The position numbers were made by a program, and so were the translations under genes. DNA of 32,000 nucleotides from Candidatus Saccharimonadota bacterium (GTDB lineage Bacteria; Bacteroidota; Bacteroidia; Cytophagales; Amoebophilaceae), in NCBI RefSeq assembly GCF_964030745.1, contig NZ_OZ034918.1, positions 30,001 through 62,000 on the forward strand. Direction: 5' to 3'. A model generated the notes under the pieces. It was given only the letters and a program-made list of their open reading frames with translations, had not been told where the DNA came from and did not search any database. Positions 9,437 to 32,000 of the stretch are shown piece after piece (positions within the stretch are counted from its first letter, which is position 1; every line of letters starts with the position of its first letter).

Positions 9437-10480
9437 TTAGTATAATAGGCTGGCGCCAGCGCTTTGTACTGATTGTTCAATAAATTGAATGATATCAGAT
9501 AAGACTAAATCGGCGTAAAGCACTGTTTCACACTGGTCTACAAATAAATTAGGGTCTATAGCTATTAAATTGCTTGCATGGAGTATTCCCTTATACATAC
9601 GGCCTTTTACTTGCGGGCGATGGGGCCACGTGATAGGTGCATAGTCATGGCTTGAATTTTTTATATCTGTAAGCATCAGTGTATTTAGGCAGTCTTCGCT
9701 GGCTAATTGACTGGCTAGAGGAATCAAGGTATCGTGTCTTCCACCTTTTTGACCAGTAATCAATAGGGCATAAGCATCATTTAATGCTTCTATCTTCTTA
9801 TGTTGGCCAACTGTTTTAATATGGAATAGAGCAGAAAAATCATTCTGATGCGTAGCAATGAGCAAACAAGGGATCTCTCTGTTCACCTCTAGGAAGCTAC
9901 ATATCTCTTTTATACATGGACTATTAGGGAATATATCTTTTAAGCCATGTAGAGGCATCCAGCCTGGCCGTGTAAGGAGGCGCATCCATGCTTGTAGGGT
10001 CATACTCCACTTCATCCTAAAAAGTGGATAGTCAATAAGCTGTAATCCCGTTTTTGCATGGGCTATAAATGCTTGCACATCACTACAGCTGCGTTCCAGC
10101 AACGGTGTGCCCATGAGGGGGGCATTAAGGGTAATGATGCCAACTATGTTAAGCTGATTTTTATAGGATTGTCCTAAGGTACAGGCCAGTACCCCTCCTT
10201 GACTATAACCGATGATAATGAGTGGAAAAGATTGTAAATCTTGGTTGTAGTGCATGAGATTAAGCGCTATATGTCTAAGCAGGTCTGCTGCTTGTTGCGC
10301 GATAGGCCGTATAACAGACTTGAACCGGACCCTACATGTTGGCTGAATGATTAGCACTACTTTTCCAAACCTCTTATGCAATGCTGCTGCAATGGCTTTT
10401 AGCTCATCTGCCTGGGCGTATAAACCATGCAATAGCAACACCGCAAAAGTAGGTGGTTGGTCTAAAGTGGGTCTATTCAT
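9437..10480 (-). CDS. Alpha/beta-hydrolase-fold serine hydrolase (lipase/esterase-like), no signal peptide
   Basis: Has VLLLHGL and IGYSQGG (Ser93 codon at 10202-10204), RHDTLIP and GILHASN, matching the triad positions of the 6988-8139 paralog. Starts 23 bp downstream of the clpB stop on the same strand. Confidence 0.8.
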   Translation of the reverse strand: MNRPTLDQPPTFAVLLLHGLYAQADELKAIAAALHKRFGKVVLIIQPTCRVRFKSVIRPIAQQAADLLRHIALNLMHYNQDLQSFPLIIIGYSQGGVLACTLGQSYKNQLNIVGIITLNAPLMGTPLLERSCSDVQAFIAHAKTGLQLIDYPLFRMKWSMTLQAWMRLLTRPGWMPLHGLKDIFPNSPCIKEICSFLEVNREIPCLLIATHQNDFSALFHIKTVGQHKKIEALNDAYALLITGQKGGRHDTLIPLASQLASEDCLNTLMLTDIKNSSHDYAPITWPHRPQVKGRMYKGILHASNLIAIDPNLFVDQCETVLYADLVLSDIIQFIEQSVQSAGASLLY

Positions 10481-10503: not shown

Positions 10504-13098
10504 TTACTGGCCATTTGAGAAAACTACTCGTCCTTGATCGTAACCAATGTCAATGGGTTGCGCTTTGGTAACGTGTCCAGCTAGCAATTCTTTAGACAAT
10601 GCATTGAGTATGACACGTTGTATCAAACGCTTAAGGGGCCTTGCACCAAATTGCAAGCTATAGCCTTCTTGTGATAGGTAGTCCATAAGTCCCTCATCCA
10701 TCCGGATCATGATACCATTCTTTGCTAGATCTGCCTGAAGTTTTGTTATCTGAATATCTACAATATCTTTAATAACTTTTTTGGAAAGTGGATTAAACAT
10801 AATGATTTCATCTACTCGATTTAAAAACTCTGGCCGCATCTGGTTTTGGAGCAATTGTATGATTGCTTCTTTTGTCTCTGCTAGTACCTCTTGGGCAGGG
10901 ATATCTTCAATACCAGCAAATCGACTTTGAATAAGGTGTGCACCCATATTACTCGTCATAATAATAATGGTATTTTTAAAATTTGCTGTTCTACCTTTGT
11001 TGTCTGTTAGCCTACCATCATCCAATACTTGGAGCAAAATATTAAAAACATCTGGATGGGCTTTTTCTATTTCATCTAATAGAATTACGGAATAGGGTTT
11101 GGTACGTACCGCTTCTGTAAGCTGGCCACCTTCGTCATATCCTATGTAGCCAGGTGGCGCACCAATCAACCGACTAACTGAATGTTTTTCTTGATATTCA
11201 GACATATCTATGCGAATCATAGCTTGTTCATCGTTGAATAAAAATTGTGCAAGTGCTTTGGCTAATTCAGTTTTACCTACTCCAGTAGTCCCTAAAAAGA
11301 TAAAAGAGCCAATAGGCTTACGGGGATCTTGTAATTCAGCACGGCTTCTGCGTACTGAGTCGGCAATAACTTGAATAGCTTCTGCTTGGCCTGCAACACG
11401 CTCAGCCAGTACAGCCTCTAAGTGTAATAGTTTTTCGCGCTCATCTTGTAGCATTTTAGAAACAGGAATGCCAGTCCGCTGTGCTATGATTTGAGCAATA
11501 TCTTCTTGCGTAACCTCTTCGTTAAACAGTGGATTGGTATCACGTAGGGCTGCTACCTGTTCTTGTAAGGCTTTGAGTTTTTTTTCTGCTTCTATCAGTC
11601 GGCCATATCGAATTTCAGCCACCTTGCCATAGTCAAAATGACGTTCAGCTTGTTCAGCATCTAAACGTAGCTGTTCAATCTGTTTTTTCTGTATGCCAAT
11701 ACCCTGAATAATCGATTTGTCGTGTTCCCATTTTGCTTTTAGGAGGTTCCTTTTTTCATTTAGCGCTGCAATGGTTTTAGACAATGCTTCCAGCTTGGCG
11801 GTATCTTTTTCTTTTCGAATCGCCTCTCTTTCAATTTCTAATTCGGTAATTTTGCGCTGGATTTGATCTAAATCCACAGGAATAGCATCCAAATCAATGC
11901 GCTTTTTAGCAGCAGCTTCATCCATGACATCTATAGCCTTATCAGGTAGAAAGCCTGGTAGGTAACGATCAGAGAGCCGTACAGTGGCTGTAACGGCACT
12001 ATCTTTAATGTGTATGCCATGATGCAACTCATATTTTGGCTTTATGCCTCGTATAATAGAAACAGCCTGCTCCTGACTTGGTTCGTCTACCATAATCACC
12101 TGGAATCTTCTTTCTAGCGCTTTATCTTTCTCTATATACTTTTGATATTCCTTTAGGGTAGTAGCGCCGATAGCATGTAGTTCTCCACGCGCAAGCGCTG
12201 GTTTGAGTAAATTAGCAGCATCCATGGCACCCTCTCCAGAGGCACCTGCCCCAATAAGCATATGGATTTCATCAATAAAAAGAATAAACTCCCCATTAGA
12301 ATCCACTACTTCTTTAATAACAGCTTTAAGCCGTTCCTCAAACTCACCTTTGTATTTGGCACCAGCAATCAAAAGGCCCAGGTCTAATGCAAAAATAATT
12401 TTAGACTTGACGTTTTCAGGGACATCACCAGAGACAATTCTTTGCGCCAACCCTTCCACAATAGCTGTTTTACCCACACCAGGTTCTCCAATTAATAGGG
12501 GGTTGCTTTTGGTCCTACGTGAAATAATTTGTACGGTTCTTCTCGATTCTTCATCACGCCCAATTACTGGATCTATTTTGCCCTCCTTAACCAGTTGATT
12601 TAAATTTTTTGCGTAACGCTCCAGCGATCTGTATTTGGACTCTGCACTAGGATCAGCAACTTTATGGGTACCCCGTAAGGCTTGAATGGCCTGCAACAAG
12701 GGTTGTTCTTCTATGCCGTGTTTTTTCATCAACGCTGCTACCTGGTCTTTACCTGCACAGAGGCTTAAAAGCAAGTGGTCTACTGCAATAAAGTCATCAC
12801 CTAGTTGTGCTTTATACCTTTCTGCTCCACGAAGCGTACCATCCATATTCGGCGATAAATAAGGCTGTTGCCCAGAGGCTTTGGGATAGGTTTGAATGAG
12901 TTGATCTAATGCTTGCTCTAGCGGCATTAAGGCCACTTGAAGTTGTTTGGTAAGAAAGGTAACGTGTGCTTCATTGCTGCTTAAAATAGCCTTTAGTAAA
13001 TGACCATTTTCAATAGTAAGCTGTTGATTGGCTTGCGCAACCGCTATAGCGCCTTGTATGGCTTCTTGCGCTTTAATGGTATATTTTCCAAAGTCCAT
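10504..13098 (-). CDS. clpB: ATP-dependent chaperone/disaggregase ClpB
   Basis: 864-aa ORF with a Clp N domain, two AAA+ modules (GEPGVGKTA and [12 protein letters not shown] Walker A motifs) and a long coiled-coil middle domain between them. Confidence 0.97.
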
Positions 13099-13413: not shown

Positions 13414-15468
13414 GTGGGTAGATATTTTATTTTCATACTGCTGATTCAGAAAGCTTTTACAGCTTTCCCGATGGCGCTACCTCATTTGCTTTCCTTTGAT
13501 GATTATGTAAGCGTAATCTACCAGCGGCAAAATTTTACCGAAGAAGAGGATTTCCAGTGTATTAAACAAGCTCTTCGAGAGGCCTACGCTGCGCCGTTAG
13601 ATTTGAATAAGGTAACAGCGGAAGCATTGGCAGCATTGGGTATTTTATCTAATAACCAAATAAAAAATTATTTCAACCATTTGGCTGCCACCGGCCCGTT
13701 CTATTCTAAATACGAGCTACAGGCTATTCCTGATTTTGACTTAACCACCATCACTTTGCTTTTACCGTTTGTCTATGTAATAGAAAGCTACCATTTACCA
13801 TCGAATGAATTGAAAATCAATACCAGTAAACCTAACTATTTTTTATTTCGTTATACCCCTGCACGAAGCCAAATATCTGATAATCAGTCATCTACCTTAG
13901 GAGGGTTAGATAAATATACGGTTCAGGTTTCTTGTAACCATTTCAGTGATATCGCATGGAGCATTACTGCTAGAAAACAACCAGGTGAGTCTTTTTGCTG
14001 GGATCATTCTACCTACCGTTATGGATTTAACCTATGGTCTATTTTTATCATGGTAGATAATAAAAAATATATTAAACGGATGGTAGTGGGTGACTACCAA
14101 ATTGGCTATGGACAGGGTTTGCTACTCAGTGCAGGTTATATCCACACCGGGGATTCGATCCATTCTATCATTCGTTCTAACAGCCTGGGCATTCGTCCTT
14201 ATAAAGGCATTAGGCGTATTGGATTGCGTGGTATAGCCATTACATCTGATCTGGGACCTATTGAAGTAACAGGATTCTATGCAAACCATAACCTAGATGC
14301 CATTCTGAAACTGAATACACAAAATAAGCTCTATACCAATCGAATAGATTGCATTGGTAAGTATGATACCGCCCATAATCTAGCCAAAAAAGGGACCGTT
14401 CATGAGCAAGTTATTGGCTGCACCATACGCAAGCAATTCAATAGAAACCAAACAGAAATAGGTATGAATCTACTCTATAACCATTACGATATACCTATTG
14501 TAAAAAGAGAAGTCTCCTCAGCTCCCTATTGGTCACAATCAGCTATTGGTTTATTTTACCGCTTGCTATGCAAAAATTGGATCATATTTGGTGAGGCAGG
14601 GCTTACGCTTCCCAATGCTACTAGGGCTAAGAAAGGGCAAGCGTTCATCACAGGATGTATGATCAGCCTTTCCCGTTATATAGACCTTTCCGGTGCATTG
14701 TATTACTATGGTAAGGGATTATGCACGCCTTATGGCCATGGCTTTAAACGCTATATGACAGATCCTTCTAATGAAAAAGGGGGGTATGTCTGTTTACAGC
14801 TTACACCTTTACCCAGCTGGCAACTTGTAACCAGTGGCCACTTTTTTGCTACCTTATTCCCTAAGCCACAGCTGGCCATAGCTAGTAGTGGCCATCGTTT
14901 TAGGACACGTTCTCACCATATATGGAATCGTACAACCATGTTGGTCATGCAGCATAAGCTAGATAAAAACCCGCGTAATAAGCCAAAGGAAGCAGATTGC
15001 CTAGCAAAAATTGAGCACGCTACTCAAAACAGTTTTAAGTGTAAAATAGATCACAAACTTACCCATTATTGGTGGGCCGATGCAGCACTACAATATACCC
15101 GTTATACTTTTTTAGGGCAAACCCATCATGGTTATGCGTTGGCCAGCACGCAAAAATGGAAAGTAAGCAAATGGCAAGTTTCTTGCAAAGCAATTTATTT
15201 TAAAACCCAAAACTATGCTACTAGGTTATACGTTTATTTACCTAATCCACTATATAGTGGTACACAGTTTCATCCCTGTTATGGTAATGGCATAGCTACT
15301 ACTTGGTTGGTCTGTTGGCGGCCTATAGGGTCGGTTCGTTTGGAAATTAAATATACTTTTATATATTTTGTTGAGGATCTTTCTAAAATAGGGGTAAGCA
15401 AAATCAAAAGTGCTCCTCGCAGTGGCGGTAAGCACGATGGGGCCATACAACTTTTGGTTAATTTTTAA
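13414..15468 (+). CDS. Helix-hairpin-helix (ComEA-like) domain protein with a predicted C-terminal beta-barrel, putative outer-membrane protein
   Basis: GTG start followed by a hydrophobic signal-like N-terminus. HhH-like segment LDLNKVTAEALAALGILSNNQIKNYFNH...YELQAIPDF. The long C-terminal region is rich in alternating aromatic/hydrophilic residues and ends in ...LLVNF (terminal Phe typical of barrel OMPs). An alternative ATG lies at 13471. Confidence 0.65.
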   Translation: MGRYFIFILLIQKAFTAFPMALPHLLSFDDYVSVIYQRQNFTEEEDFQCIKQALREAYAAPLDLNKVTAEALAALGILSNNQIKNYFNHLAATGPFYSKYELQAIPDFDLTTITLLLPFVYVIESYHLPSNELKINTSKPNYFLFRYTPARSQISDNQSSTLGGLDKYTVQVSCNHFSDIAWSITARKQPGESFCWDHSTYRYGFNLWSIFIMVDNKKYIKRMVVGDYQIGYGQGLLLSAGYIHTGDSIHSIIRSNSLGIRPYKGIRRIGLRGIAITSDLGPIEVTGFYANHNLDAILKLNTQNKLYTNRIDCIGKYDTAHNLAKKGTVHEQVIGCTIRKQFNRNQTEIGMNLLYNHYDIPIVKREVSSAPYWSQSAIGLFYRLLCKNWIIFGEAGLTLPNATRAKKGQAFITGCMISLSRYIDLSGALYYYGKGLCTPYGHGFKRYMTDPSNEKGGYVCLQLTPLPSWQLVTSGHFFATLFPKPQLAIASSGHRFRTRSHHIWNRTTMLVMQHKLDKNPRNKPKEADCLAKIEHATQNSFKCKIDHKLTHYWWADAALQYTRYTFLGQTHHGYALASTQKWKVSKWQVSCKAIYFKTQNYATRLYVYLPNPLYSGTQFHPCYGNGIATTWLVCWRPIGSVRLEIKYTFIYFVEDLSKIGVSKIKSAPRSGGKHDGAIQLLVNF

Positions 15469-15527: not shown

Positions 15528-16124
15528 ATGAAAAAAACTACCATTCTAAAATTGCCTCGTATCTCCCATTCGTGTACTCAGCTTTTAGGAACTGTTGTTA
15601 TTGCCTTTAGCAGTCTATTGGTAAATTATACCGCTTGCCATACTTGCAATCGATCTGATGCTGATTTAGATATACAAGCTTGGTTTACACCGCAAGATCC
15701 TTGTATGGACCTTATTGTGGCTAAGATTCTATCTGCGAAATCATTAATTCTTGTGCAGGCCTATGTGATCACCTCGCATAGGATTGCTGATGCACTGATC
15801 CAAGCGCATCAAAATAGGGTAGGAGTGCAGGTATTGATAGACAAAGATGCGCAGACTACAAGAGGCAGTAAAGTAGGTTGGTTATTGCAACATGGCATTC
15901 CTATTATAGTTGACAAAACAGTTGGTTATGCCCATAATAAAGTTATGATTATTGATGATGCATATGTCCTTACAGGTTCTTTTAACTGGACACATGGTGC
16001 ACAAACGAGAAATGCAGAAAACCTAGTGATGATAACAGGAAAACATATCAATAGAAAGTTTAAAAACAATTGGTATGTAAGGGCAGCAGCTGGAGAAAGA
16101 TTAAAATTTATACGCAACCATTAA
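15528..16124 (+). CDS. Phospholipase D superfamily protein with a single HKD motif (Nuc-like), signal peptide/lipobox
   Basis: The HKD signature HNKVMIIDDAYVLTGSFNWT appears once in 198 aa. N-terminal hydrophobic segment with VNYTAC. Confidence 0.85.
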   Translation: MKKTTILKLPRISHSCTQLLGTVVIAFSSLLVNYTACHTCNRSDADLDIQAWFTPQDPCMDLIVAKILSAKSLILVQAYVITSHRIADALIQAHQNRVGVQVLIDKDAQTTRGSKVGWLLQHGIPIIVDKTVGYAHNKVMIIDDAYVLTGSFNWTHGAQTRNAENLVMITGKHINRKFKNNWYVRAAAGERLKFIRNH

Positions 16125-17717: not shown

Positions 17718-18329
17718 CTAGTGCGTTACGCTATATAGCAGAGTAAGTATATCGTTCCTTTGAGCATAGCATAACGGGTTGCGGCCATAGTTATCTTGCA
17801 GATTTGGGTCCAATCCTAATGCCAATAGGCGCTTAACTAGTGCATTACTCTCCTTATGGTCTAACGCAGCTGCATAGTGCAGTAAGGTTTTTCCATCTTG
17901 TCCCCGGAGCGTTAGCCTCCCTAAGGCTATTGCTTTTTTAATCAACTGTTGCATAGCAGATGCATTAGCCCCTTCGTATGCCCAATCAAAAGCTGTTCGA
18001 CCATCCTTATCTTTCGCATCTATTGGTGCACCGCTGTCAAGTAAGTTTTCAGTGCTCACACCTGTTGTATCACAGTAAGCGGCCCAATGTAAGAGCGTAC
18101 AACCATTTTCATCGCTACTATTGAGTATAGCTGGATTGTTACGCACATATATGGGAACTTTTTCAGGTTTACCTTGTTTAATAGCTGAGATAGCTGAGGC
18201 CAGAGAAGTCTCTTTTGGTTGTCTTTTAGAGGATAGACAACTACTGGCTTGTAAGGAGCAAAAGATTATAATAAGGTATACAGTTATATGGTGCATCGGG
18301 TATGTCAATAAAATAGACTTCTTTTGCAA
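17718..18329 (-). CDS. Ankyrin-repeat protein with signal peptide/lipobox
   Basis: N-terminal LIIIFCSLQASSC. At least three ANK-like repeats (GCTLLHWAAYCD, DGRTAFDWAYEGAN, GKTLLHYAAALDH...LLALGLDPNLQDNYGRNPLCYA). Confidence 0.85.
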   Translation of the reverse strand: MQKKSILLTYPMHHITVYLIIIFCSLQASSCLSSKRQPKETSLASAISAIKQGKPEKVPIYVRNNPAILNSSDENGCTLLHWAAYCDTTGVSTENLLDSGAPIDAKDKDGRTAFDWAYEGANASAMQQLIKKAIALGRLTLRGQDGKTLLHYAAALDHKESNALVKRLLALGLDPNLQDNYGRNPLCYAQRNDILTLLYSVTH

Positions 18330-22309: not shown

Positions 22310-23032
22310 GTGGCTAAGCAGGACAGAAGCAATTTACGCATAACACTTTTATTGTATTCCTTTATCTTAAGTTCAAGTCTATGCAGAGGGAGTACATTTG
22401 CAGAACTTCCAGGACCTCTGATAGAAGCTTTAGAGTCAAAGGTTGATCCACCAACCCATAGACCGGAAAAAGTGTCTACATCACCAGATATTATCAGTAG
22501 CCATGCTGTTCATACCACTAATGCTCCTTTAAGCCCAAATGAAAAAGTGTCTACACTACCAGATATTGTCGGCAGCCATGCTGGTAATGGTAGTGGTAGC
22601 CAAGTCATGCAACCACCCCAAATGGAAAATAGCTTCGAAGCAGTATATAAGCTAGCATCTGCAGCGTTCACTCCAATACTTAGGTCTAGACAACTATTTC
22701 TAGCTTTAATATCAAAAATTAAATCAGATGAAGAATTGGTAGCGTTAAAAAAAGTGTTAGAAAGAACGTTCGAGGAAAAGTTAAGCAACTATACCTATTT
22801 TCTTGCCTTAACAAAAGAGTTAGAAGGAGAAGAAAGCTTCAAGCAAGATGTCGGAGCAGAAATAGTGAAGATTATTCATGCAAACCAGAACGAATTAAGT
22901 GAATATAGAGCGTTAAAAACGTTACTGGCTGTTAGGGAGTATAACAACAATCAAATTAGCATCACAAAAAGTCCAAATCTCTCAAGGAGTAGTTCAAGAT
23001 ATAGAACAAACTGTCGAAGAAGCCAAAAGTAA
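22310..23032 (+). CDS. Hypothetical secreted/lipoprotein with a 25-aa tandem repeat, possibly the 5' part of a frameshifted gene
   Basis: GTG start. Signal with LSSSLC lipobox. Repeated EKVST(S/L)PDI(I/V)(S/G)SHA segment. The last 25 or so residues (ISITKSPNLSRSSSRYRTNCRRSQK) look out of frame. Confidence 0.6.
   Translation: MAKQDRSNLRITLLLYSFILSSSLCRGSTFAELPGPLIEALESKVDPPTHRPEKVSTSPDIISSHAVHTTNAPLSPNEKVSTLPDIVGSHAGNGSGSQVMQPPQMENSFEAVYKLASAAFTPILRSRQLFLALISKIKSDEELVALKKVLERTFEEKLSNYTYFLALTKELEGEESFKQDVGAEIVKIIHANQNELSEYRALKTLLAVREYNNNQISITKSPNLSRSSSRYRTNCRRSQK
22466..22583 (+). repeat. In-frame 75-bp tandem duplication inside the 22310-23032 ORF
   Basis: GAAAAAGTGTCTACATCACCAGATATTATCAGTAGCCATGCTG (22466-22508) and GAAAAAGTGTCTACACTACCAGATATTGTCGGCAGCCATGCTG (22541-22583). 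Confidence 0.85.
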
Positions 23033-23066: not shown

Positions 23067-23567
23067 ATGATAGATGGTACGCTGTTAATCCTTAAAGATG
23101 AAAAAGATGAAATAGCTGCTTATGAAAATAGCGTAAAAAAGTTTTTACAGAAACATCCAGACATGAAGGGGGCAAAGATAGCAAACATTATGCCGTTGAC
23201 TAGCGTAGCAAAAATGGTTCGAGAAAGTCTGCAATCACTTCAAATAGCTATAAACGAAATAGGTGGCTCATCTTCTATTAAAGCAGTAATCCAAGGGCAG
23301 GAAGTCACAGTACGGGATGCGCTAATAACGGCAAACGAAATTTGTACAAAGTTATTAGAATGTATACAAAACGAAATGGAAAAAATGGAAAAAATAAACG
23401 AAGAAATAAAAACATTAGAAAATGTTAAAGAAGAACTATTCAGTGACATAGACAAATATTCAAAAATGATAGAGCAACTCGAAACAGTAGAAAAATCCAT
23501 TCATGCGCTCAAGCCGCCTGACTTGTTGGAAGAAAACCTTAATAATCCATCTAAAAAATCTTATTAA
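23067..23567 (+). CDS. Hypothetical coiled-coil protein, possibly the 3' part of the frameshifted 22310 gene
   Basis: 166-aa Glu/Lys-rich helical ORF. Its frame stays open and protein-like upstream to 22944 (QQFKLASQKVQISQGVVQDIEQTVEEAKSKNHIIPAQQWEE-MIDG...). Confidence 0.6.
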   Translation: MIDGTLLILKDEKDEIAAYENSVKKFLQKHPDMKGAKIANIMPLTSVAKMVRESLQSLQIAINEIGGSSSIKAVIQGQEVTVRDALITANEICTKLLECIQNEMEKMEKINEEIKTLENVKEELFSDIDKYSKMIEQLETVEKSIHALKPPDLLEENLNNPSKKSY

Positions 23568-26105: not shown

Positions 26106-26705
26106 ATGTATAAAAATTTAAACAACTACGTCTATAAACTTGGTTTATTGTTTGCATGTACATTGTCTATTAATTTTACCAATAAAATAGTCTATTGTGC
26201 CTTGCTATTTACTGCTTTAACAGTGGTCCTAAATAGTATAGCAAAGTGGCATGGCAGTAAAAAGGCTGCTATAAGCATACTATTGTGCAGCGCTACTAGC
26301 TTTGCTTTTTTATATGATAAACAATATTATATTTCCGGTAAGCTTATCCATGGGCTTATATTAACCTCTTTATGTGCTATATTAGTTGCTTCATATATTG
26401 GACTTAAGCTTTTTTTAAAACTACAAACACGCTATGGGTTTGCAGCAAGCAATTGTATAAGCTTATTCATCTCTTCACTTGTGGATCACCTGATCATGGG
26501 GCTGTTTTTTACTCGAGTATTTCCTATCCGTAAGGTTTGGTTAATAGTCTATCAAGAAACAGCTTATATTTACCTTTTTTCAGCTGCAATATATCTAGGC
26601 TCAGCTATAATTTTGTATGCAAAGCCAGCTTATATTAAAGTTAAAAAACAATTGCGCCTGCTTTGCACTATCCGTTCTGTTAAATCTAAGATACCACCCT
26701 TATAA
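26106..26705 (+). CDS. Polytopic membrane protein, possibly VUT/YhhQ (queuosine-precursor transporter) family
   Basis: 199 aa with about six hydrophobic segments. The segment SNCISLFISSLVDHLIMGLFF resembles the conserved VUT-family helix. The family call comes from memory of YhhQ only. Confidence 0.45.
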   Translation: MYKNLNNYVYKLGLLFACTLSINFTNKIVYCALLFTALTVVLNSIAKWHGSKKAAISILLCSATSFAFLYDKQYYISGKLIHGLILTSLCAILVASYIGLKLFLKLQTRYGFAASNCISLFISSLVDHLIMGLFFTRVFPIRKVWLIVYQETAYIYLFSAAIYLGSAIILYAKPAYIKVKKQLRLLCTIRSVKSKIPPL

Positions 26706-26743: not shown

Positions 26744-27283
26744 ATGATTCTAAATAGAGCCTTTTTTGGACAAGACACCAATACCGTCAGCACCCATCTC
26801 ATTGGCAAGCTGCTGTGTTTTCGTAATTTTAAGGGAATCATTACGGAAACAGAGAGTTACATTGGCTCAGATGATCCCGCTTGCCATGCAGCTAGAGGGA
26901 TGACGCCAAGAACTAAAATCATGTTTGGATCTGCTGGGTTTAGTTATGTATATTTCATATATGGCAAATATTACTGCTTAAATATTGTTACGGAAGCTTT
27001 AAATTTTCCAGCGGCCACACTCATTAGAGGCATACAACTGATTCATCCACCCTATACTTATCTAAATGGACCGGGCAAACTTTGTCAGTTTTTAGGTATT
27101 GATTTAAGCCATAATGCGATCGATGTAACGCTATCAAAGTCATTGTATATTAAGGATATAGGTTTTCAATTATCCTATAAAGCAACACCTAGAATAGGGA
27201 TTTCAAAAGGTTTGGATAAAATGTGGCGGTACGTTATTACGGATAAAGATGGTATAGCAGCTATGCTACCCCATACAACTTAA
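26744..27283 (+). CDS. mpg: DNA-3-methyladenine glycosylase (AAG/Mpg family)
   Basis: FF.QDT..V...LIGK.L, ITETESY.G.DDPACHA, G.TPRT..MFG..G..YVY.IYG...CLNIV and ATLIRGI are characteristic of the Mpg/AAG family. Confidence 0.9.
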
Positions 27284-27289
27284 ACGGCT

Positions 27290-30200
27290 ATGCCTACCAA
27301 AAACCATCATGTTATTCTACGTAGCCGGATTGAAGTTACGGTAGATAAGCATAACCAAAATAGCATCCTTCAACAGACCATTCATAAAGTTATCCAGAAA
27401 CGGATTATACCTATTTTATCCAAACTCCTTTCTAAATATGTACCGCATGATGTAGTTATCCACTTAGACAAACTTGTCATAGATGGAGGCAGTTTTCATC
27501 TATCCACCCTAGACAAGCAATTGCCCTGCCAAGTAGAGCAAATTTTAATGGTTCAGCTACAAGAACAGATTAAAAAAGTGATCCAGAACCCTGCTGTACA
27601 CCAAATAATACCACTACCAGATGCAAAACGGGAAGCTCTAGCCCACTATCTCTCAGAAGGTAATTTTGCTTGGTGGATGTCAGAAAATTCTGAAAATCAG
27701 ATTGAAAAAATATATCTAGCATTACTCCATCATACCCCTCTGCTTATAGAACAACTCTGGTATAATCTGAACAAGAAAGAAAAAGCCGTTCAACGTTGTA
27801 TGACGCTTTTTTCTCATACTACCCTAGAACATACCCTTTCTTGCTTATTAAAACAGCCTATAACATACTTTAGACCCATCTTAGCTGAAACAGGATTATT
27901 ACTACATCAAACCAAGGTTTTGACCAATTTATCCTACCCACCGAAACAACAGTTGCTTGCAATGGCCTTATTAGGCATCATCACCCAACAAAAGACTAAA
28001 ATAGACCAGATGGGTTTATTGAGTATACTCCTCAAGCAAGTCGCCCTACAAACCTCTACTCATTACGACACAGTTCTAGAAAAATTACACGCTCACTATG
28101 CGCAAAATGAGGGAAAGGCCTCATGTCACACAACCACTAAAGCATTGCTCCTTCAGTTGCGTGACCTAGTTATAACGCCACCAAAGTTATGGTATCAGGA
28201 TCTTAAAAATCAGGAAAATGTATTAAAAGAATTGGACAAAATAGGCAATGGTAGGGTAGAGGACCATCAATTATCAGCAGTTATGCATCGGATTGGAGTA
28301 GCAATGGACCAAGCTGGTATACGCCCTCTGGTAAAAAGCTGGCTGCAAGAAGAAAAAAACAGAACAAAATTGGCTAAACATTTACCTGATGCGCTCTTTG
28401 CTCCATTCTTAGCCTCTATAGATCCCTCTATTATAGCTATATTTTCTGATTTTGCCCAAATCGCAACAGTTACTACTGCTACCAACGTGCCTGCTTGCGT
28501 GATTAAAACCAATACGTTAGCCTACTGTGCTTTTAGGCATTCTAAAACAGATTATCTGAAAGAGATGAAATCATTGTTTAGAAAGTATATTGCCAATAAC
28601 ATCATTAGTAAGGAACAACTCGCCACACTCCTTGCCACGCAACCCTATCACCCAGTCATAAAATCCACCCTAGTACCATTGACGTCTCGATTTGCAAAAA
28701 AAACATTACGCCATCGTCCACCTAGCACATACCTGCCTGATGTAGCAGCTAGCAAGATGCCAATCCATCAGCCCACCATACAGCATAGTCCTGCCCAACC
28801 CATACTGCTTTCAACAGAGCTCCTCAATAGACTAGAAAAGCTGATTATTAGATTGTTGGAGCCTACTCCATGCCAAATAAGTGTGGATGCAGTCAAAAAT
28901 ATATTGGTGCAAGCCGCCATTGCAGACCCACTTAGCACGGAAAAAAAATATATAGATCGTGTTATAGACTACCTTACCCCATATGCGCCATTTGCTGCTG
29001 ACATATTAGGTGCAACAGAAGAATATCAACAGCTAGCAGCCTGCTTTTCTAGTATGGCACCATTACAAACTAACCATGAGATCACCCAATTAGGTGGAGA
29101 TTCAGAAAACCCATTATCTGATGTAGTGGATTTTCTTGCTTATAATGAATTGCCAACAGGTCAGTTGGTACCAGCTTATTTCATAGCCAAATGTTTGGGA
29201 AAGGCAACATGCCAAGCAATACGAGATCAGTTGGTACCCTTATGCCAAGAGCCGACTATTCTAAAAAAGTTAATGCAACATGCCACAGAGGCAGCCTTAT
29301 CCAAACTATTACAGGCCTTTACTACTTTTCCCCAGCAGATACTAGATGGATTAGAACAGGTCATTATACAATCAGGCGTATTCCAAGGCACCCAACAGCA
29401 GGACAATATCCGTTTGCTCAAAGAAATTTTTATTACAGCAGCCATTATCCATAGACCATCCGAACAGCAATATATAGAATGCATTGTACTCCATCTTAGC
29501 AGAGCAACTGCATCTAATCCCACCATTTTATGTGAGCAATTGATAGATGCAGCCAAACAATCAAGCGATCATCACTTAGCAGAGGCCTTTTCTTTGATTA
29601 AGGAAAAGTTAGCCCCATTGAACCTAGATGAAATAGACGAAACGGATCTTATTTTTCTATCCACACACGAAACATTTACTTTGGACAAAGGACTTTTACC
29701 ACTTTACTATAGTAGCCTATTGCCAGCTATTAAACATATGGTACGCCAATCCCTTGATCTATCCCAATCAGCGATCGACCAACTCGTTGCACAACACTTG
29801 CCAACCATTCCCCCCCCTCTACAGGAAACCATAAGTTTTGCATGCTACAAGCAACTTGCCAATGTGATACAAAGCAAACAAGAACGGGTGGCACAAAGAT
29901 GGCACCTCTTTTTACATACTGGTAAGTTGGGGGATTATCTAGACAGTAAAGCCTTGTTGGAGGATGTTATTACCCATCTTCCCACTTTTGCATTAGCACA
30001 AGATAAAATACATGTACGTCAACGTCTCATTACAAATTTTACCCATACGCAGCTTATGTTATTGGTTCAGCACCACAGTGAGGCTGGAAAATCATTAGCA
30101 AGCTGTATACAGGGAAGCTATCAATTGTGGTGTGCCACACAAGGCTCATTGAGTCAATTCAATACCGCCAAACAGCTATTTTGGAATAGTGTACTCAAAA

Positions 30201-31732
30201 CCTTACCGCAGACATCTATGGATCAAGATCATTGGCTTGCACAATTCATCACCGAATTGAGTAATATGGTAGAAATCACACCCACCACACTACTTGAAAC
30301 CTTCCAACTTGTGGAGACCAAACCAAAAGAGATATCCACCTCATTACATAAGTTACAAGACAAATACCGACAAGAGATCCAGCGGCAAGCCATACAACGT
30401 GGCTACAAAGCGGCTACGTTAGCCAAGCTTTATCTACTGCTCAATAGTAATCTATCACTTTTTACCCAGGAGTATCATCTATCCATGGCTACATTAGGCA
30501 ACGAATTGGTGCAGTTTATGGCGGATCAACCATCTGCTGTATCAAAGCTTCTAGAAGAACAAGACAATCCTCAATTGGTAGCCAGACGGCTGGTACACTA
30601 CTTTAGCCAAGAAGTTGCCAGAAAAATTATAGCCTGCTTGGCAAAAGAACAATCTCAGTTTGTTATGCATTATCTAGACCTACTGACCGATCCATTGGCA
30701 CATATAGCTATACAACCAGATCCCTCTTCAACCTGGAACAAAGAACTATACATTGCTACGATAGATTATTTTATTACCCAACAGCCATTTGAAGCAACAA
30801 AATTTATACATAGCACCCTAGTGACCACCCGCTATCCCAAAGAAGCGATGTATAAAATCCTGTCTTCAATTGTAGCTACAAAAGCCACTAACCAGGACAG
30901 AGACAAGATAATCACTTTGCTTAAGCCCCTGGTACAGCACATCAATCAACCTACTATGCCTCAGCAGGTTTCAGTCAATCATCCATTAGCATCGCCATTG
31001 GCAACCAAGCAACAAGCCCCACTCCCAAAAGTTAGTCCACTAGAGAAAGAAGTGCGAGTCTATACCAAAAATAGTGGGTTGGTTTTTTTATGGCCCTTTT
31101 TGTATGATTTTTTTAAGGGACACCACCTTATGGTTGGCAACCAATTCTTCTGTGACCAAGCAGCCCATAATGCCGTTTATCTCTTACAATACTTAGTTAC
31201 GGGCAAACTAAAAAGCCCAGAATGGCAACTTACCCTGCCCAAACTACTGTGCGGATTATCCTACGATGAAGTATTGCTACCCTATACACCCATAGATGCA
31301 GATTGCGATACATATGATCAAGAAGCGCTAGAAACAACAGGACGAGCGTCAGCAAAACAGCCTAAACAGCCACCCACAGAACAAACAGCAGCAGATGCAT
31401 CCATATCTAGCAGTGCCATAGAAGCTATAGCCCTAAATAACCAACTGTTTATGGAAAAAGTAATCAAACGTTGGAAAAGCTTAACAAAACTCAAAGAAAT
31501 AGCTCTATACCAAAATTGTACCACTCAAGATATATTGCAAAGTTATTTTTTGAACCGGCTAGGTATTTTAACTAGACAGGAAGCCAATGATGCTACCGAA
31601 AGCAAATTTTGGCATCTAACGATTATGTATCAGGACGACGATACAGACAATGTACTCCCCCCTTGGTCTATGACCAATATTAAACTACCTTGGATGCAAG
31701 AAGCAATGATTGTATTTTGGATGCCCGGGTAG
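27290..31732 (+). CDS. Very large (1480 aa) predicted helical protein, candidate contractile-injection-system (eCIS / T6SS-iv type) tape-measure protein
   Basis: Uninterrupted ORF starting 7 bp after the mpg stop. The N-terminus (HHVILRSRIEVTV...RIIPILSKLL...VIHLDKLVIDGGSF) and the C-terminus (SGLVFLWPFLYDFF...AVYLLQYLVTGK...LTLPKLLCGL...VIKRWKSL...YFLNRLGILTRQ...WHLTI...IKLPWMQEAMIVFWMPG) fit my recollection of the conserved ends of CIS tape-measure proteins. The function is an inference. The CDS itself is secure. Confidence 0.55.
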   Translation: MPTKNHHVILRSRIEVTVDKHNQNSILQQTIHKVIQKRIIPILSKLLSKYVPHDVVIHLDKLVIDGGSFHLSTLDKQLPCQVEQILMVQLQEQIKKVIQNPAVHQIIPLPDAKREALAHYLSEGNFAWWMSENSENQIEKIYLALLHHTPLLIEQLWYNLNKKEKAVQRCMTLFSHTTLEHTLSCLLKQPITYFRPILAETGLLLHQTKVLTNLSYPPKQQLLAMALLGIITQQKTKIDQMGLLSILLKQVALQTSTHYDTVLEKLHAHYAQNEGKASCHTTTKALLLQLRDLVITPPKLWYQDLKNQENVLKELDKIGNGRVEDHQLSAVMHRIGVAMDQAGIRPLVKSWLQEEKNRTKLAKHLPDALFAPFLASIDPSIIAIFSDFAQIATVTTATNVPACVIKTNTLAYCAFRHSKTDYLKEMKSLFRKYIANNIISKEQLATLLATQPYHPVIKSTLVPLTSRFAKKTLRHRPPSTYLPDVAASKMPIHQPTIQHSPAQPILLSTELLNRLEKLIIRLLEPTPCQISVDAVKNILVQAAIADPLSTEKKYIDRVIDYLTPYAPFAADILGATEEYQQLAACFSSMAPLQTNHEITQLGGDSENPLSDVVDFLAYNELPTGQLVPAYFIAKCLGKATCQAIRDQLVPLCQEPTILKKLMQHATEAALSKLLQAFTTFPQQILDGLEQVIIQSGVFQGTQQQDNIRLLKEIFITAAIIHRPSEQQYIECIVLHLSRATASNPTILCEQLIDAAKQSSDHHLAEAFSLIKEKLAPLNLDEIDETDLIFLSTHETFTLDKGLLPLYYSSLLPAIKHMVRQSLDLSQSAIDQLVAQHLPTIPPPLQETISFACYKQLANVIQSKQERVAQRWHLFLHTGKLGDYLDSKALLEDVITHLPTFALAQDKIHVRQRLITNFTHTQLMLLVQHHSEAGKSLASCIQGSYQLWCATQGSLSQFNTAKQLFWNSVLKTLPQTSMDQDHWLAQFITELSNMVEITPTTLLETFQLVETKPKEISTSLHKLQDKYRQEIQRQAIQRGYKAATLAKLYLLLNSNLSLFTQEYHLSMATLGNELVQFMADQPSAVSKLLEEQDNPQLVARRLVHYFSQEVARKIIACLAKEQSQFVMHYLDLLTDPLAHIAIQPDPSSTWNKELYIATIDYFITQQPFEATKFIHSTLVTTRYPKEAMYKILSSIVATKATNQDRDKIITLLKPLVQHINQPTMPQQVSVNHPLASPLATKQQAPLPKVSPLEKEVRVYTKNSGLVFLWPFLYDFFKGHHLMVGNQFFCDQAAHNAVYLLQYLVTGKLKSPEWQLTLPKLLCGLSYDEVLLPYTPIDADCDTYDQEALETTGRASAKQPKQPPTEQTAADASISSSAIEAIALNNQLFMEKVIKRWKSLTKLKEIALYQNCTTQDILQSYFLNRLGILTRQEANDATESKFWHLTIMYQDDDTDNVLPPWSMTNIKLPWMQEAMIVFWMPG

Positions 31733-31839: not shown

Positions 31840-31871
31840 ATAGCCTGGTGTAGGCCAGTAGGCTATTTTTA
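31840..31871 (+). terminator. Candidate intrinsic terminator after the 1480-aa ORF
   Basis: Imperfect hairpin ATAGCC-TGG...CCA-GTA-GGCTAT (31840-31866), followed directly by a run of five T. Confidence 0.45.
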
Positions 31872-31926: not shown

Positions 31927-32000
31927 ATGTTGTATAAAAAAATAACCTTGCCGCTTTTGCCATTTGCCGGGTTGCTCATAGTCTCGAGTTGTGACAATGG
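31927..32000 (+). CDS. Lipoprotein, N-terminal fragment (continues beyond the window)
   Basis: The ATG at 31927 gives MLYKKITLPLLPFAGLLIVSSCDN, a classical signal peptide with lipobox. Only 24 codons are visible. Confidence 0.5.
   Translation, partial: MLYKKITLPLLPFAGLLIVSSCDN

What the first reader, a model, noticed from the sequence alone, without database searches (positions are those of the whole stretch)
27290..31732. Stand-alone 1480-aa ORF with tape-measure-like termini, and no contractile-injection-system core genes nearby
Seen in sequence:
- A single 4.4-kb ORF lies between mpg (7-bp gap, probably co-transcribed) and a lipoprotein gene.
- The N-terminal roughly 90 aa read HHVILRSRIEVTV / IIPILSKLLSKYVP / VIHLDKLVIDGGSF.
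- The C-terminal roughly 300 aa read SGLVFLWPFLYDFF, AVYLLQYLVTGK, LPKLLCGL, IKRWKSL, YFLNRLGIL, WHLTI, KLPWM...VFW.

From memory, these termini match the pattern conserved at the two ends of Afp14/Pvc14/Cis14-type tape-measure proteins of extracellular CIS and T6SS subtype iv. The roughly 1100 aa between them look like non-repetitive helical spacer.

Two things would be unusual if this is right:
- The ruler gene is genomically separated from any sheath, tube or baseplate genes, and embedded among housekeeping genes.
- At the phage-derived rule of thumb of about 0.15 nm per residue, 1480 aa predicts a tube of roughly 220 nm, much longer than classical Afp/PVC particles.
Basis: partly seen in the sequence, partly recalled or inferred. 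Interest (0 to 1): 0.75.

Follow-up and report, generated by a model that had tools for sequence, protein, structure and literature searches.

The report
Cardinium injection-system tape-measure gene, already annotated
This 1480-residue gene is the length-ruler ("tape measure") protein of the phage-tail-like injection machine of the insect endosymbiont Cardinium. It is already named as such in public databases, and its position away from the other machine genes is a published feature of this lineage, so the finding is correct but ordinary.

Summary
The ORF at 27290..31732 (+), 1480 aa, is real.

- **Family match:** the protein matches Pfam PF19268 (CIS_TMP) at E=3.8e-71. The N-terminal 130 aa (E=1.2e-19) and the C-terminal 430 aa (E=2.4e-40) each match on their own.
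- **Middle region:** about 1100 aa are predicted 72% helical and contain no internal repeat.
- **Already annotated:** the exact sequence is NCBI WP_342265377.1, [quoted passage not shown]. That organism also has an annotated tail sheath.
- **Separation from core genes is known:** Penz et al. 2012 reported 16 AFP-like genes in five regions of Cardinium cEper1. Their list includes the Afp14 homologue CAHE_0118 (= Aasi_1806). In two Amoebophilus-like genomes the orthologue still sits at the end of the sheath-tube-spike-baseplate cluster.
- **Length is normal here:** Amoebophilaceae orthologues span 1255-1800 aa. Long members (1200 aa or more) make up 45 of 117 full-length relatives.
- **One small extra:** other Cardinium strains carry two or three tandem copies of a helical module of about 115-205 aa. 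This is a natural length series that could test the ruler function.

Novelty: already known. Interest: low.

The parts
27290..31732 (+). Tape measure protein gene of the Cardinium T6SS subtype iv / AFP-like contractile injection system (1480 aa; identical to NCBI WP_342265377.1)
   Evidence: ORF. Pfam PF19268 CIS_TMP E=3.8e-71, 241 bits against a cut-off of 27.8. Exact-sequence look-up gives the NCBI name. Orthologues in all Cardinium strains found. dN/dS 0.26-0.28.
27290..27679 (+). N-terminal conserved module (residues 1-130), mixed alpha/beta
   Evidence: Matches CIS_TMP profile positions 1-126 on its own, E=1.2e-19. AF2 strands at 14-18, 55-58, 62-67 and 106-108, plus helices. dN/dS 0.16-0.22.
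27617..30943 (+). Central all-helical region (residues about 110-1218), the presumed ruler part
   Evidence: 72% helix, no strands, 60 short helices (helices continue to about residue 1218). No Pfam hit. No internal repeat. Foldseek gives only generic alpha-solenoid similarity, TM about 0.1.
28640..29119 (+). Hypervariable, partly disordered stretch (residues about 451-610)
   Evidence: Identity 29-36% and 24-37% gaps in the family alignment. pLDDT below 50 at 469-508 and 569-605. dN/dS 0.47-0.55. Its length ranges from 29 to 271 aa among orthologues.
31055..31309 (+). Most conserved core of the family (residues 1256-1340: GLVFLWPFLYDFF ... AVYLLQYLVTGK ... LPKLLCGL)
   Evidence: dN/dS 0.05-0.09 and 69-75% identity windows. 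This is the stretch shared with thousands of distant relatives (query 200-290 of the 430-aa query) and with the Serratia Afp14-position gene. Well modelled by AF2.
31409..31729 (+). C-terminal alpha/beta domain (residues about 1374-1480), after a disordered linker at 1339-1370
   Evidence: AF2 helices 374-421 and strands 425-477 of the 1001-1480 model. Invariant W1395, R1423, W1441, D1451, P1458, W1459. dN/dS 0.17-0.21.
26744..27283 (+). mpg (3-methylpurine DNA glycosylase), 6 nt upstream, same strand; probably co-transcribed
   Evidence: Pfam Pur_DNA_glyco E=1.8e-48. Gap read directly. The mpg-TMP adjacency is also seen in Cardinium of Nabis limbatus and in cBcalN2.
26106..26705 (+). 199-aa hydrophobic protein of unknown function, 38 nt upstream of mpg; possible first gene of the transcription unit
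   Evidence: ORF. No Pfam or NCBIfam hit. Syntenic in L007, L002 and L001.
31840..31871 (+). Hairpin followed by a U-run after the TMP stop; possible terminator (weak)
   Evidence: Folded at -14 kcal/mol, z=-1.6, not significant. Not called by the terminator scan.
31927..32000 (+). Start of a 624-aa Cardinium-specific putative lipoprotein gene (cut by the window end)
   Evidence: Sequence. Full gene on L008. Only 8 homologues, all named ones from Cardinium. Adjacent to the TMP gene in L003, L004, L006/L012, L007 and L008.

Best explanation
The gene encodes the tape measure protein (Afp14/Cis14 class) of the Cardinium type VI secretion system subtype iv. This phage-tail-like machine is thought to form the cytoplasmic arrays of tubes typical of Cardinium cells.

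Shown here:
- It belongs to the CIS tape-measure family.
- It is the orthologue of the gene that closes the injection-system cluster in Amoebophilus-like relatives.
- It is intact and under purifying selection.
- The source organism has a sheath gene.

Inferred from Afp14 and Alg14 experiments and from phage tape-measure proteins:
- The C-terminal domains dock in the spike/baseplate hub.
- The long helical middle lies inside the growing inner tube.
- Polymerisation stops when the tube reaches the N-terminal end, where the Pvc16-like cap binds.
- The number of residues therefore sets the tube length.

For 1480 residues the predicted length is about 220 nm at 0.15 nm per residue, or about 320-340 nm at the eCIS calibrations of 0.216-0.229 nm per residue.

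The gene lies away from the sheath-tube and baseplate modules because the ancestral cluster was broken up during genome rearrangement in this IS-rich, reduced genome. It now probably rides on the transcript of a membrane-protein gene and mpg.
For: - **Family:** Pfam CIS_TMP E=3.8e-71. The N-terminal and C-terminal parts each hit on their own, matching profile positions 1-126 and 136-377. There are 5101 representative relatives at E<=1e-3.
- **Direct link to a classical system:** tblastn hits genes annotated as CIS tape measure in Burkholderia, Azospirillum and Serratia plasmids. The Serratia gene (585 aa) sits between the baseplate genes and the AAA ATPase and Pvc16 genes of an Afp-like cluster.
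- **Identity:** the exact sequence is WP_342265377.1, 'contractile injection system tape measure protein', from Cardinium endosymbiont of Philonthus spinipes. The same organism's sheath, WP_342265095.1, is on a contig of the same length, 1,093,165 bp.
- **Orthology and ancestral position:** orthologues at 43-66% identity occur in named Cardinium strains, and at 22-25% in Amoebophilus-like genomes. In those genomes the gene directly follows sheath, gp19 tube, CIS_tube, VgrG, PAAR, gp25 and an 833-836-aa baseplate protein.
- **Dispersal in Cardinium:** the TMP gene is isolated in cOegibbosus, cBtQ1, the Tipula strain and the Logan contig. In the Nabis limbatus strain the sheath module lies at about 88 kb and the TMP at about 900-905 kb of a 1.158-Mb chromosome.
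- **Literature:** 16 AFP-like genes lie in five regions of cEper1, and Table S5 pairs CAHE_0118 with Aasi_1806 and Afp14 (PMC3486910). CAHE_0118 is transcribed (PMC5698495 supplement). All sequenced Cardinium encode T6SSiv homologues (PMC12342168).
- **Selection:** dN/dS is 0.26-0.28 overall and 0.05-0.09 in the core.
- **Architecture:** alpha/beta termini and an all-helical middle, the same pattern described for eCIS tape measures.
- **Ruler function in the family:** lengthening or shortening Alg14 changes AlgoCIS particle length as predicted (bioRxiv 10.64898/2026.05.27.728243).
- **Natural length variation:** Cardinium orthologues vary by tandem duplication of a helical module while the termini stay fixed.
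Against: - No experiment on this protein or on any T6SSiv tape measure was found. One paper says only that tape measure proteins 'possibly' regulate length in T6SSiv (PMC6450956).
- AlphaFold2 folds the middle into many short helices with solenoid-like local geometry (pTM 0.62), not a few long helices. The conformation inside a tube is therefore unknown.
- The nm-per-residue factor is uncertain by about 1.5-fold.
- No solved structure resembles either part.
- I could not read the primary T6SSiv cryo-tomography paper. No measured tube length could be compared with the prediction.
- The position of the sheath gene relative to this window in the source chromosome was not obtained.
Confidence: 0.87

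Rival explanations
1. The protein is mainly a translocated cargo or effector. It keeps tape-measure termini so that it is loaded into the tube, and its large helical middle acts on the host cell after firing.
For: - The tube contents, tape measure included, are expelled on firing (general knowledge of phage tails; text).
- A tape-measure-related effector has been reported for a Streptomyces CIS (title of PMC11126660).
- The middle is conserved rather than free-running spacer.
- AlphaFold2 models the middle as a folded solenoid-like array, a fold often used for protein binding.
Against: - No enzymatic or host-targeting domain is detected.
- Foldseek TM-scores are about 0.1, so the solenoid resemblance is generic.
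- Length changes by whole-module duplication, with fixed termini, are what a ruler would show.
- The orthologue occupies the tape-measure slot of the cluster in Amoebophilus-like genomes.
Confidence: 0.08
2. The gene is a stranded remnant. It was cut off from the cluster by rearrangement and no longer takes part in assembly, or is decaying.
For: - It lies among housekeeping genes, with three transposase genes in the same window.
- dN/dS of 0.26-0.28 is not very low, and some linkers approach 1.
Against: - A 4.4-kb frame is uninterrupted in every strain examined.
- Constraint on the core is strong (0.05-0.09).
- The cEper1 orthologue is transcribed.
- The rest of the system is equally scattered yet highly expressed.
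- The tubes are seen by EM in Cardinium.
Confidence: 0.03
3. The match to tape-measure proteins is chance similarity of a leucine-rich helical protein.
For: The protein is 13.9% leucine and largely helical. Such composition can inflate weak matches.
Against: - The score is 241 bits against a 27.8-bit cut-off.
- Two separate termini match the correct ends of the profile in the correct order.
- Invariant Trp, Pro and Gly positions are shared with Amoebophilus orthologues.
- The helical middle itself gives no Pfam hit.
Confidence: 0.01

Closest known systems
CAHE_0118 of Cardinium hertigii cEper1 and other Cardinium 'contractile injection system tape measure' / 'Afp14-like' proteins
   Same: Orthologues at 43-66% identity over the full length, with the same three-part architecture. 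They are likewise isolated from the sheath-tube and baseplate modules. The window protein is itself one of these, WP_342265377.1.
   Different: The window version carries a single copy of the helical module of about 115-205 aa. That module is duplicated or triplicated in the cBtQ1, cEhis1 and cEina3 types (1594-1800 aa). The upstream neighbours differ between strains (mpg here, in the Nabis strain and in cBcalN2).
Aasi_1806 of 'Candidatus Amoebophilus asiaticus' 5a2 and its homologues in Amoebophilus-like genomes (T6SS subtype iv)
   Same: Same family and similar length (1552-1573 aa in the two relatives found). Invariant residues are shared throughout. Penz et al. list Aasi_1806 as the Afp14 counterpart, and its locus tag places it away from the Aasi_1072-1083 genes listed with it.
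   Different: Only 22-25% identical. In Amoebophilus sp. 36-38 and in an 881-kb metagenomic contig the gene is still the last gene of the contiguous cluster.
Afp14 / Pvc14 / Alg14 of extracellular contractile injection systems (Serratia Afp, Photorhabdus PVC, Algoriphagus AlgoCIS)
   Same: Same Pfam family. N- and C-terminal mixed alpha/beta parts flank a helical middle. There is a direct tblastn match to the Afp14-position gene of a Serratia marcescens Afp-like cluster. Ruler function was shown by engineering Alg14.
   Different: Those proteins are about 2.5-3 times shorter (585 aa in pELP1.10; 526 aa for Alg14, with a 120.6-nm particle). They are encoded inside their clusters and belong to released particles, not membrane-anchored intracellular arrays.
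Phage tail tape measure proteins (T4 gp29, lambda gpH)
   Same: The same proposed logic: a mostly helical protein inside the tube whose length sets tail length, and length evolution by internal tandem duplication.
   Different: No detectable sequence match was obtained here. The relationship rests on the literature (Afp14 'shares homology with Gp29').

Membership tests
CIS tape measure protein family (Pfam PF19268; Afp14/Pvc14/Cis14) | Significant whole-protein match to the family profile above the curated cut-off | tested here: met
   241.2 bits, E=3.8e-71, cut-off 27.8.
CIS tape measure protein family (Pfam PF19268; Afp14/Pvc14/Cis14) | Both conserved ends present in the right order (N-terminal module and C-terminal module) | tested here: met
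   Residues 1-130 match profile positions 1-126 (E=1.2e-19). Residues 1051-1480 match profile positions 136-377 (E=2.4e-40). Each was scanned alone.
CIS tape measure protein family (Pfam PF19268; Afp14/Pvc14/Cis14) | Central region almost exclusively alpha-helical and variable in length | tested here: met
   72% helix, no strands in residues 110-1200. Orthologue lengths of 1255-1800 aa arise from indels and duplications in the middle.
CIS tape measure protein family (Pfam PF19268; Afp14/Pvc14/Cis14) | Encoded within or next to a sheath-tube-baseplate gene cluster | tested here: not met
   No such gene in the 32-kb window or on L008. The feature is met for the orthologues in two Amoebophilus-like genomes. 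Its absence is the published state in Cardinium. This is a usual context rather than a strict definition.
CIS tape measure protein family (Pfam PF19268; Afp14/Pvc14/Cis14) | Sheath and tube genes present in the same genome | tested here: met
   Sheath WP_342265095.1 comes from the same named organism, on a contig of the same length. In the related Nabis strain the sheath, gp19 tube, CIS_tube and Pvc16_N genes are on the same chromosome. The full set was not enumerated for the source genome.
CIS tape measure protein family (Pfam PF19268; Afp14/Pvc14/Cis14) | Protein length determines tube/particle length | not testable with these tools
   Shown for Alg14 and reported for Afp14 (cited). No data exist for any T6SSiv.
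T6SS subtype iv (Amoebophilus/Cardinium AFP-like system) | Orthology to the component of the characterised A. asiaticus system | tested here: met
   Full-length homology to Amoebophilus-like proteins encoded in the cluster (E=1.4e-77 and 6.5e-74). Penz Table S5 pairs the Cardinium orthologue with Aasi_1806.
T6SS subtype iv (Amoebophilus/Cardinium AFP-like system) | Membrane-anchored intracellular arrays of contractile structures | not testable with these tools
   EM of Cardinium shows such arrays, according to the literature.

The most novel reading that the evidence does not exclude
Cardinium strains form a natural ruler series. The tape measure carries one (this window, 1480 aa), two (cEhis1 type, 1594 aa) or three (cBtQ1 and cEina3 types, 1712-1800 aa) tandem copies of a helical module of about 115-205 aa. 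Some copies are still 91-96% identical. T6SSiv tube length, and with it cargo capacity or reach, would then differ between strains by roughly 30-45 nm per 204-aa copy. This would be the first in-situ evidence that a tape measure sets the length of a T6SS-type machine.
Probability: 0.4. Interest if true: 0.4.

Novelty: already known. Interest (0 to 1): 0.12.

Why it matters
It matters little as a discovery.
- The protein is already annotated with this function.
- The scattered gene layout of the Cardinium injection system has been in the literature since 2012.

Its residual value is practical. The gene is a clean example of a very long tape measure in a T6SS-type (membrane-anchored) machine. 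Classical T6SSs have no ruler, and length control in subtype iv is still only 'possible'.

Comparing strains whose tape measures differ by whole duplicated modules would give a direct, genetics-free test of ruler function in an uncultivable symbiont. It would also calibrate the nm-per-residue factor for long tape measures.

Tried and rejected
- **NCBIfam:** no model matched the protein.
- **PDB by sequence:** the single protein and a family profile gave nothing significant.
- **PDB by fold:** Foldseek with the C-terminal model gave nothing (best E=0.6). The 1-1200 model gave only generic alpha-solenoids at TM about 0.1. There is no structural anchor and no hidden enzyme domain.
- **Exact-sequence contig look-ups:** these failed for the window protein, P0006 and P0312. 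I could not fetch the source chromosome or measure the TMP-to-sheath distance in it.
- **Sheath in the sample of the 99% contig:** I tried to find a sheath gene in that Logan sample (SRR15069915). The two candidate Logan sheath contigs came from other samples.
- **Self-comparison:** the first self-BLASTs were invalid, because BLAST drops off-diagonal matches contained in the full-length self-hit. I redid the test with fragments.
- **Promoters and terminators:** the sigma-70-type scan and the Bacteroidota -7 motif TAnnTTTG showed no enrichment and no useful site upstream of the gene. The hairpin after the stop codon is not significant (z=-1.6).
- **ClpB versus ClpV:** the ClpB-like gene at 10504-13098 was checked as a possible ClpV. 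It scores higher as housekeeping ClpB (1180 against 812 bits), so it is not counted as part of the system.
- **Primary T6SSiv paper:** Böck et al. 2017 is not held, so no measured T6SSiv length is quoted.

Full report
**Observation**

All the peptide strings quoted are in its translation.
- The upstream gene (26744..27283) is a methylpurine DNA glycosylase (Pfam Pur_DNA_glyco, E=1.8e-48). The gap to the ORF is 6 nt, not 7.
- The downstream gene starts at 31927 and is cut by the window end. Its N-terminus, MLYKKITLPLLPFAGLLIVSSC, reads as a lipoprotein signal with a lipobox cysteine.
- The rest of the window holds the following genes:
  - a phosphoglycerate-mutase fragment, enolase, and three transposase genes of different families;
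  - two alpha/beta-hydrolase paralogues and housekeeping ClpB (TIGR03346 1180 bits against 812 for ClpV);
  - a PLD-like protein, an LPG-synthase-type membrane protein, GatC and an ankyrin protein;
  - Mfd, a TPR protein and several proteins with no family match.
- No sheath, tube, spike or baseplate gene is present.

**Family**

- The protein matches Pfam PF19268, 'Contractile injection system tape measure protein', at E=3.8e-71 (241 bits, cut-off 27.8).
- Scanned separately, residues 1-130 match profile positions 1-126 (E=1.2e-19). Residues 1051-1480 match positions 136-377 (E=2.4e-40). Residues 131-1050 match nothing.
- A search of 1.84 billion representative proteins with the C-terminal 430 aa found 5101 relatives at E<=1e-3. 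Most share the stretch corresponding to residues about 1250-1340.
- The same stretch aligns by plain tblastn to plasmid genes annotated as CIS tape measure proteins in Burkholderia, Azospirillum and Serratia.
- In Serratia marcescens pELP1.10 the matched gene (585 aa) sits in the Afp14 position of a canonical Afp-like cluster. It lies after the tube, three sheath genes, DUF5908, VgrG/Pvc8, gp25 and two large baseplate genes, and before the AAA ATPase and the Pvc16-family cap.

**Source and prior annotation**

- An exact-sequence look-up shows the window protein is NCBI WP_342265377.1. Its name is 'contractile injection system tape measure protein [Cardinium endosymbiont of Philonthus spinipes]', on a 1,093,165-bp contig.
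- That organism's tail sheath protein, WP_342265095.1, is on a contig of the same length.
- All close homologues are from Cardinium (43-66% identity). One is named 'Afp14-like protein' in the Sogatella furcifera strain. The next relatives are Amoebophilus-like proteins at 22-25% identity.
- The organism belongs to the Amoebophilaceae.

**Is the separation from core genes unusual?**

It is not unusual for this lineage.
- Penz et al. 2012 (PMC3486910) reported 16 AFP-like genes in five genome regions of Cardinium cEper1.
- Their Table S5 pairs CAHE_0118 with Aasi_1806 of A. asiaticus and with Afp14. The other listed A. asiaticus genes include Aasi_1072-1083, so by locus tag the gene is apart from them there too.
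- I confirmed the pattern directly. The orthologue is flanked by IS elements and housekeeping genes in cOegibbosus. It is flanked by ankyrin and housekeeping genes in cBtQ1 and by transposases in the Tipula strain.
- In the complete chromosome of the Nabis limbatus strain the sheath-tube module (Pvc16_N, sheath, gp19, DUF5908, CIS_tube) lies at about 88 kb. The tape-measure gene lies at about 900-905 kb of 1.158 Mb.
- By contrast, in Amoebophilus sp. 36-38 and in an 881-kb metagenomic Amoebophilus-like contig the orthologue directly follows sheath, tube, CIS_tube, VgrG, PAAR, gp25 and an 833-836-aa baseplate protein.
- The simplest reading is that the contiguous cluster is ancestral and was fragmented in these IS-rich symbiont genomes.
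- Local synteny (TPR protein, 199-aa membrane protein, mpg, TMP, lipoprotein) is shared with the Nabis strain. The mpg-TMP pair is shared with cBcalN2.

**Is the length unusual?**

- Within the Amoebophilaceae, 1255-1800 aa is the norm.
- Among the best 150 family representatives the lengths are bimodal. Of 117 that look full-length, 49 are 400-700 aa and 45 are 1200 aa or longer.
- On calibration, the 0.15 nm per residue rule gives about 222 nm.
- A 2026 preprint on AlgoCIS measured 120.6 nm for 526 residues (0.229 nm per residue). It found a slope of 0.2156 across characterised systems, and showed that lengthening or shortening Alg14 changes particle length as predicted.
- Those factors give about 319-339 nm for this protein.
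- I could not read the primary T6SSiv tomography paper, so I quote no measured value. A 2019 paper says only that tape measure proteins 'possibly' control length in T6SSiv.

**Anatomy**

- AlphaFold2 with 20-21 family sequences gave usable models: residues 1-1200 with pLDDT 75 and pTM 0.62, and residues 1001-1480 with pLDDT 74.
- Residues 1-110 form a small alpha/beta module.
- Residues about 110-1218 are all-helical, with 60 helices of median 12 residues in residues 110-1200 (72% helix, no strands). A disordered stretch lies at about 469-605.
- After a disordered linker (1220-1252) comes a compact alpha/beta core (1256-1338). A second linker (1339-1370) and a C-terminal alpha/beta domain (1374-1477) follow.
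- Neither model has a meaningful PDB neighbour. The helical part gives only generic solenoid matches at TM about 0.1. Sequence and profile searches of the PDB are also empty.
- Conservation is fairly even (50-65% identity per 50-aa window). It dips at 451-600, 1201-1250 and 1351-1400, and peaks at 1251-1350.
- dN/dS against two orthologues is 0.26-0.28 overall. It is 0.05-0.09 for residues 1256-1340, 0.22-0.33 for the helical middle, and 0.47 to above 1 for the linkers.
- The gene is therefore intact and constrained, and the middle is more than free spacer. The cEper1 orthologue is transcribed.

**Mechanism (inferred)**

This follows Afp14/Alg14 and phage tape-measure proteins.
- The conserved C-terminal domains dock in the spike/baseplate hub.
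- The helical middle occupies the lumen of the growing tube.
- Growth stops when the tube reaches the N-terminal module and the Pvc16-like cap binds.
- Only family membership, orthology, integrity and the presence of a sheath gene are shown here. The ruler role itself is inferred.

**An extra observation**

- The window protein has no internal repeat (an earlier self-BLAST was invalid).
- Several orthologues carry tandem duplications inside the helical middle:
  - two copies of a module of about 204 aa in the cEhis1 type (1594 aa);
  - three copies in the cEina3 type (1800 aa, copies up to 96% identical);
  - mixed 115- and 204-aa periods in cBtQ1 (1712 aa);
  - a 104-aa duplication in the Tipula strain;
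  - 52-aa repeats in a metagenomic relative.
- Fixed termini with a middle that grows by module duplication is what a ruler is expected to show. It mirrors the engineered Alg14 duplications.
- It predicts strain-specific tube lengths, which could be tested by tomography.

**Verdict**

The feature is an already annotated member of a known family, in a lineage where both its long size and its separation from the cluster are established. Interest is low.

Noticed in passing
L012 (cBtQ1, P0003), L004 (cEina3, P0004), L003 (cEhis1, P0007), P0005, L013 (Tipula strain, P0014), P0018; protein residues about 300-930: Orthologous tape measure proteins in other Cardinium strains carry 2-3 tandem copies of a helical module of about 115-205 aa, with copies 50-96% identical. 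This accounts for most of the 1480-to-1800-aa length spread. The window protein has one copy.
   Followed up: partly
window 31927-32000, continuing on L008 9547-11421: A 624-aa putative lipoprotein with no Pfam family has only 8 homologues, and all the named ones are from Cardinium. It lies directly downstream of the tape-measure gene in at least five strains, even where the upstream neighbours differ. It could be an accessory of the injection system, but nothing tested here shows that.
   Followed up: partly
window 2632-6757: Three transposase genes of different families sit side by side: DDE_Tnp_1/DUF772, IS110, and IS66 with its zinc finger. IS copies also flank the tape-measure gene in the cOegibbosus and Tipula strains. 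This fits IS-driven break-up of the injection-system cluster.
   Followed up: partly
window 6988-8139 and 9437-10480 (- strand), with a 269-aa unknown gene between them at 8497-9306: Two paralogous alpha/beta-hydrolase genes give weak palmitoyl-thioesterase / lipase-type Pfam matches. They are possible host-directed enzymes.
   Followed up: no
window 15528-16124 (+) and 17718-18329 (-): A small PLD-family protein (PLDc_2, E=1.9e-23) and an ankyrin-repeat protein. Both are typical candidate host-interaction proteins of intracellular symbionts.
   Followed up: no
window 10504-13098 (-): An 864-aa Clp/Hsp100 ATPase scores higher as housekeeping ClpB (1180 bits) than as T6SS ClpV/TssH (812 bits). 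It reaches neither model's curated cut-off.
   Followed up: yes
window 27001-31000: GC skew is strongly negative (-0.15 to -0.19) across the tape-measure gene, while it stays between -0.11 and +0.16 in the rest of the window. This probably reflects the Gln/Leu/Pro/His/Thr-rich coding strand, but that was not tested.
   Followed up: no
window 13414-15468 (+), 22310-23032 (+), 23067-23567 (+), 26106-26705 (+): Four ORFs of 166-684 aa have no Pfam or NCBIfam match. The 199-aa hydrophobic one is syntenic with mpg and the tape-measure gene in several strains.
   Followed up: partly
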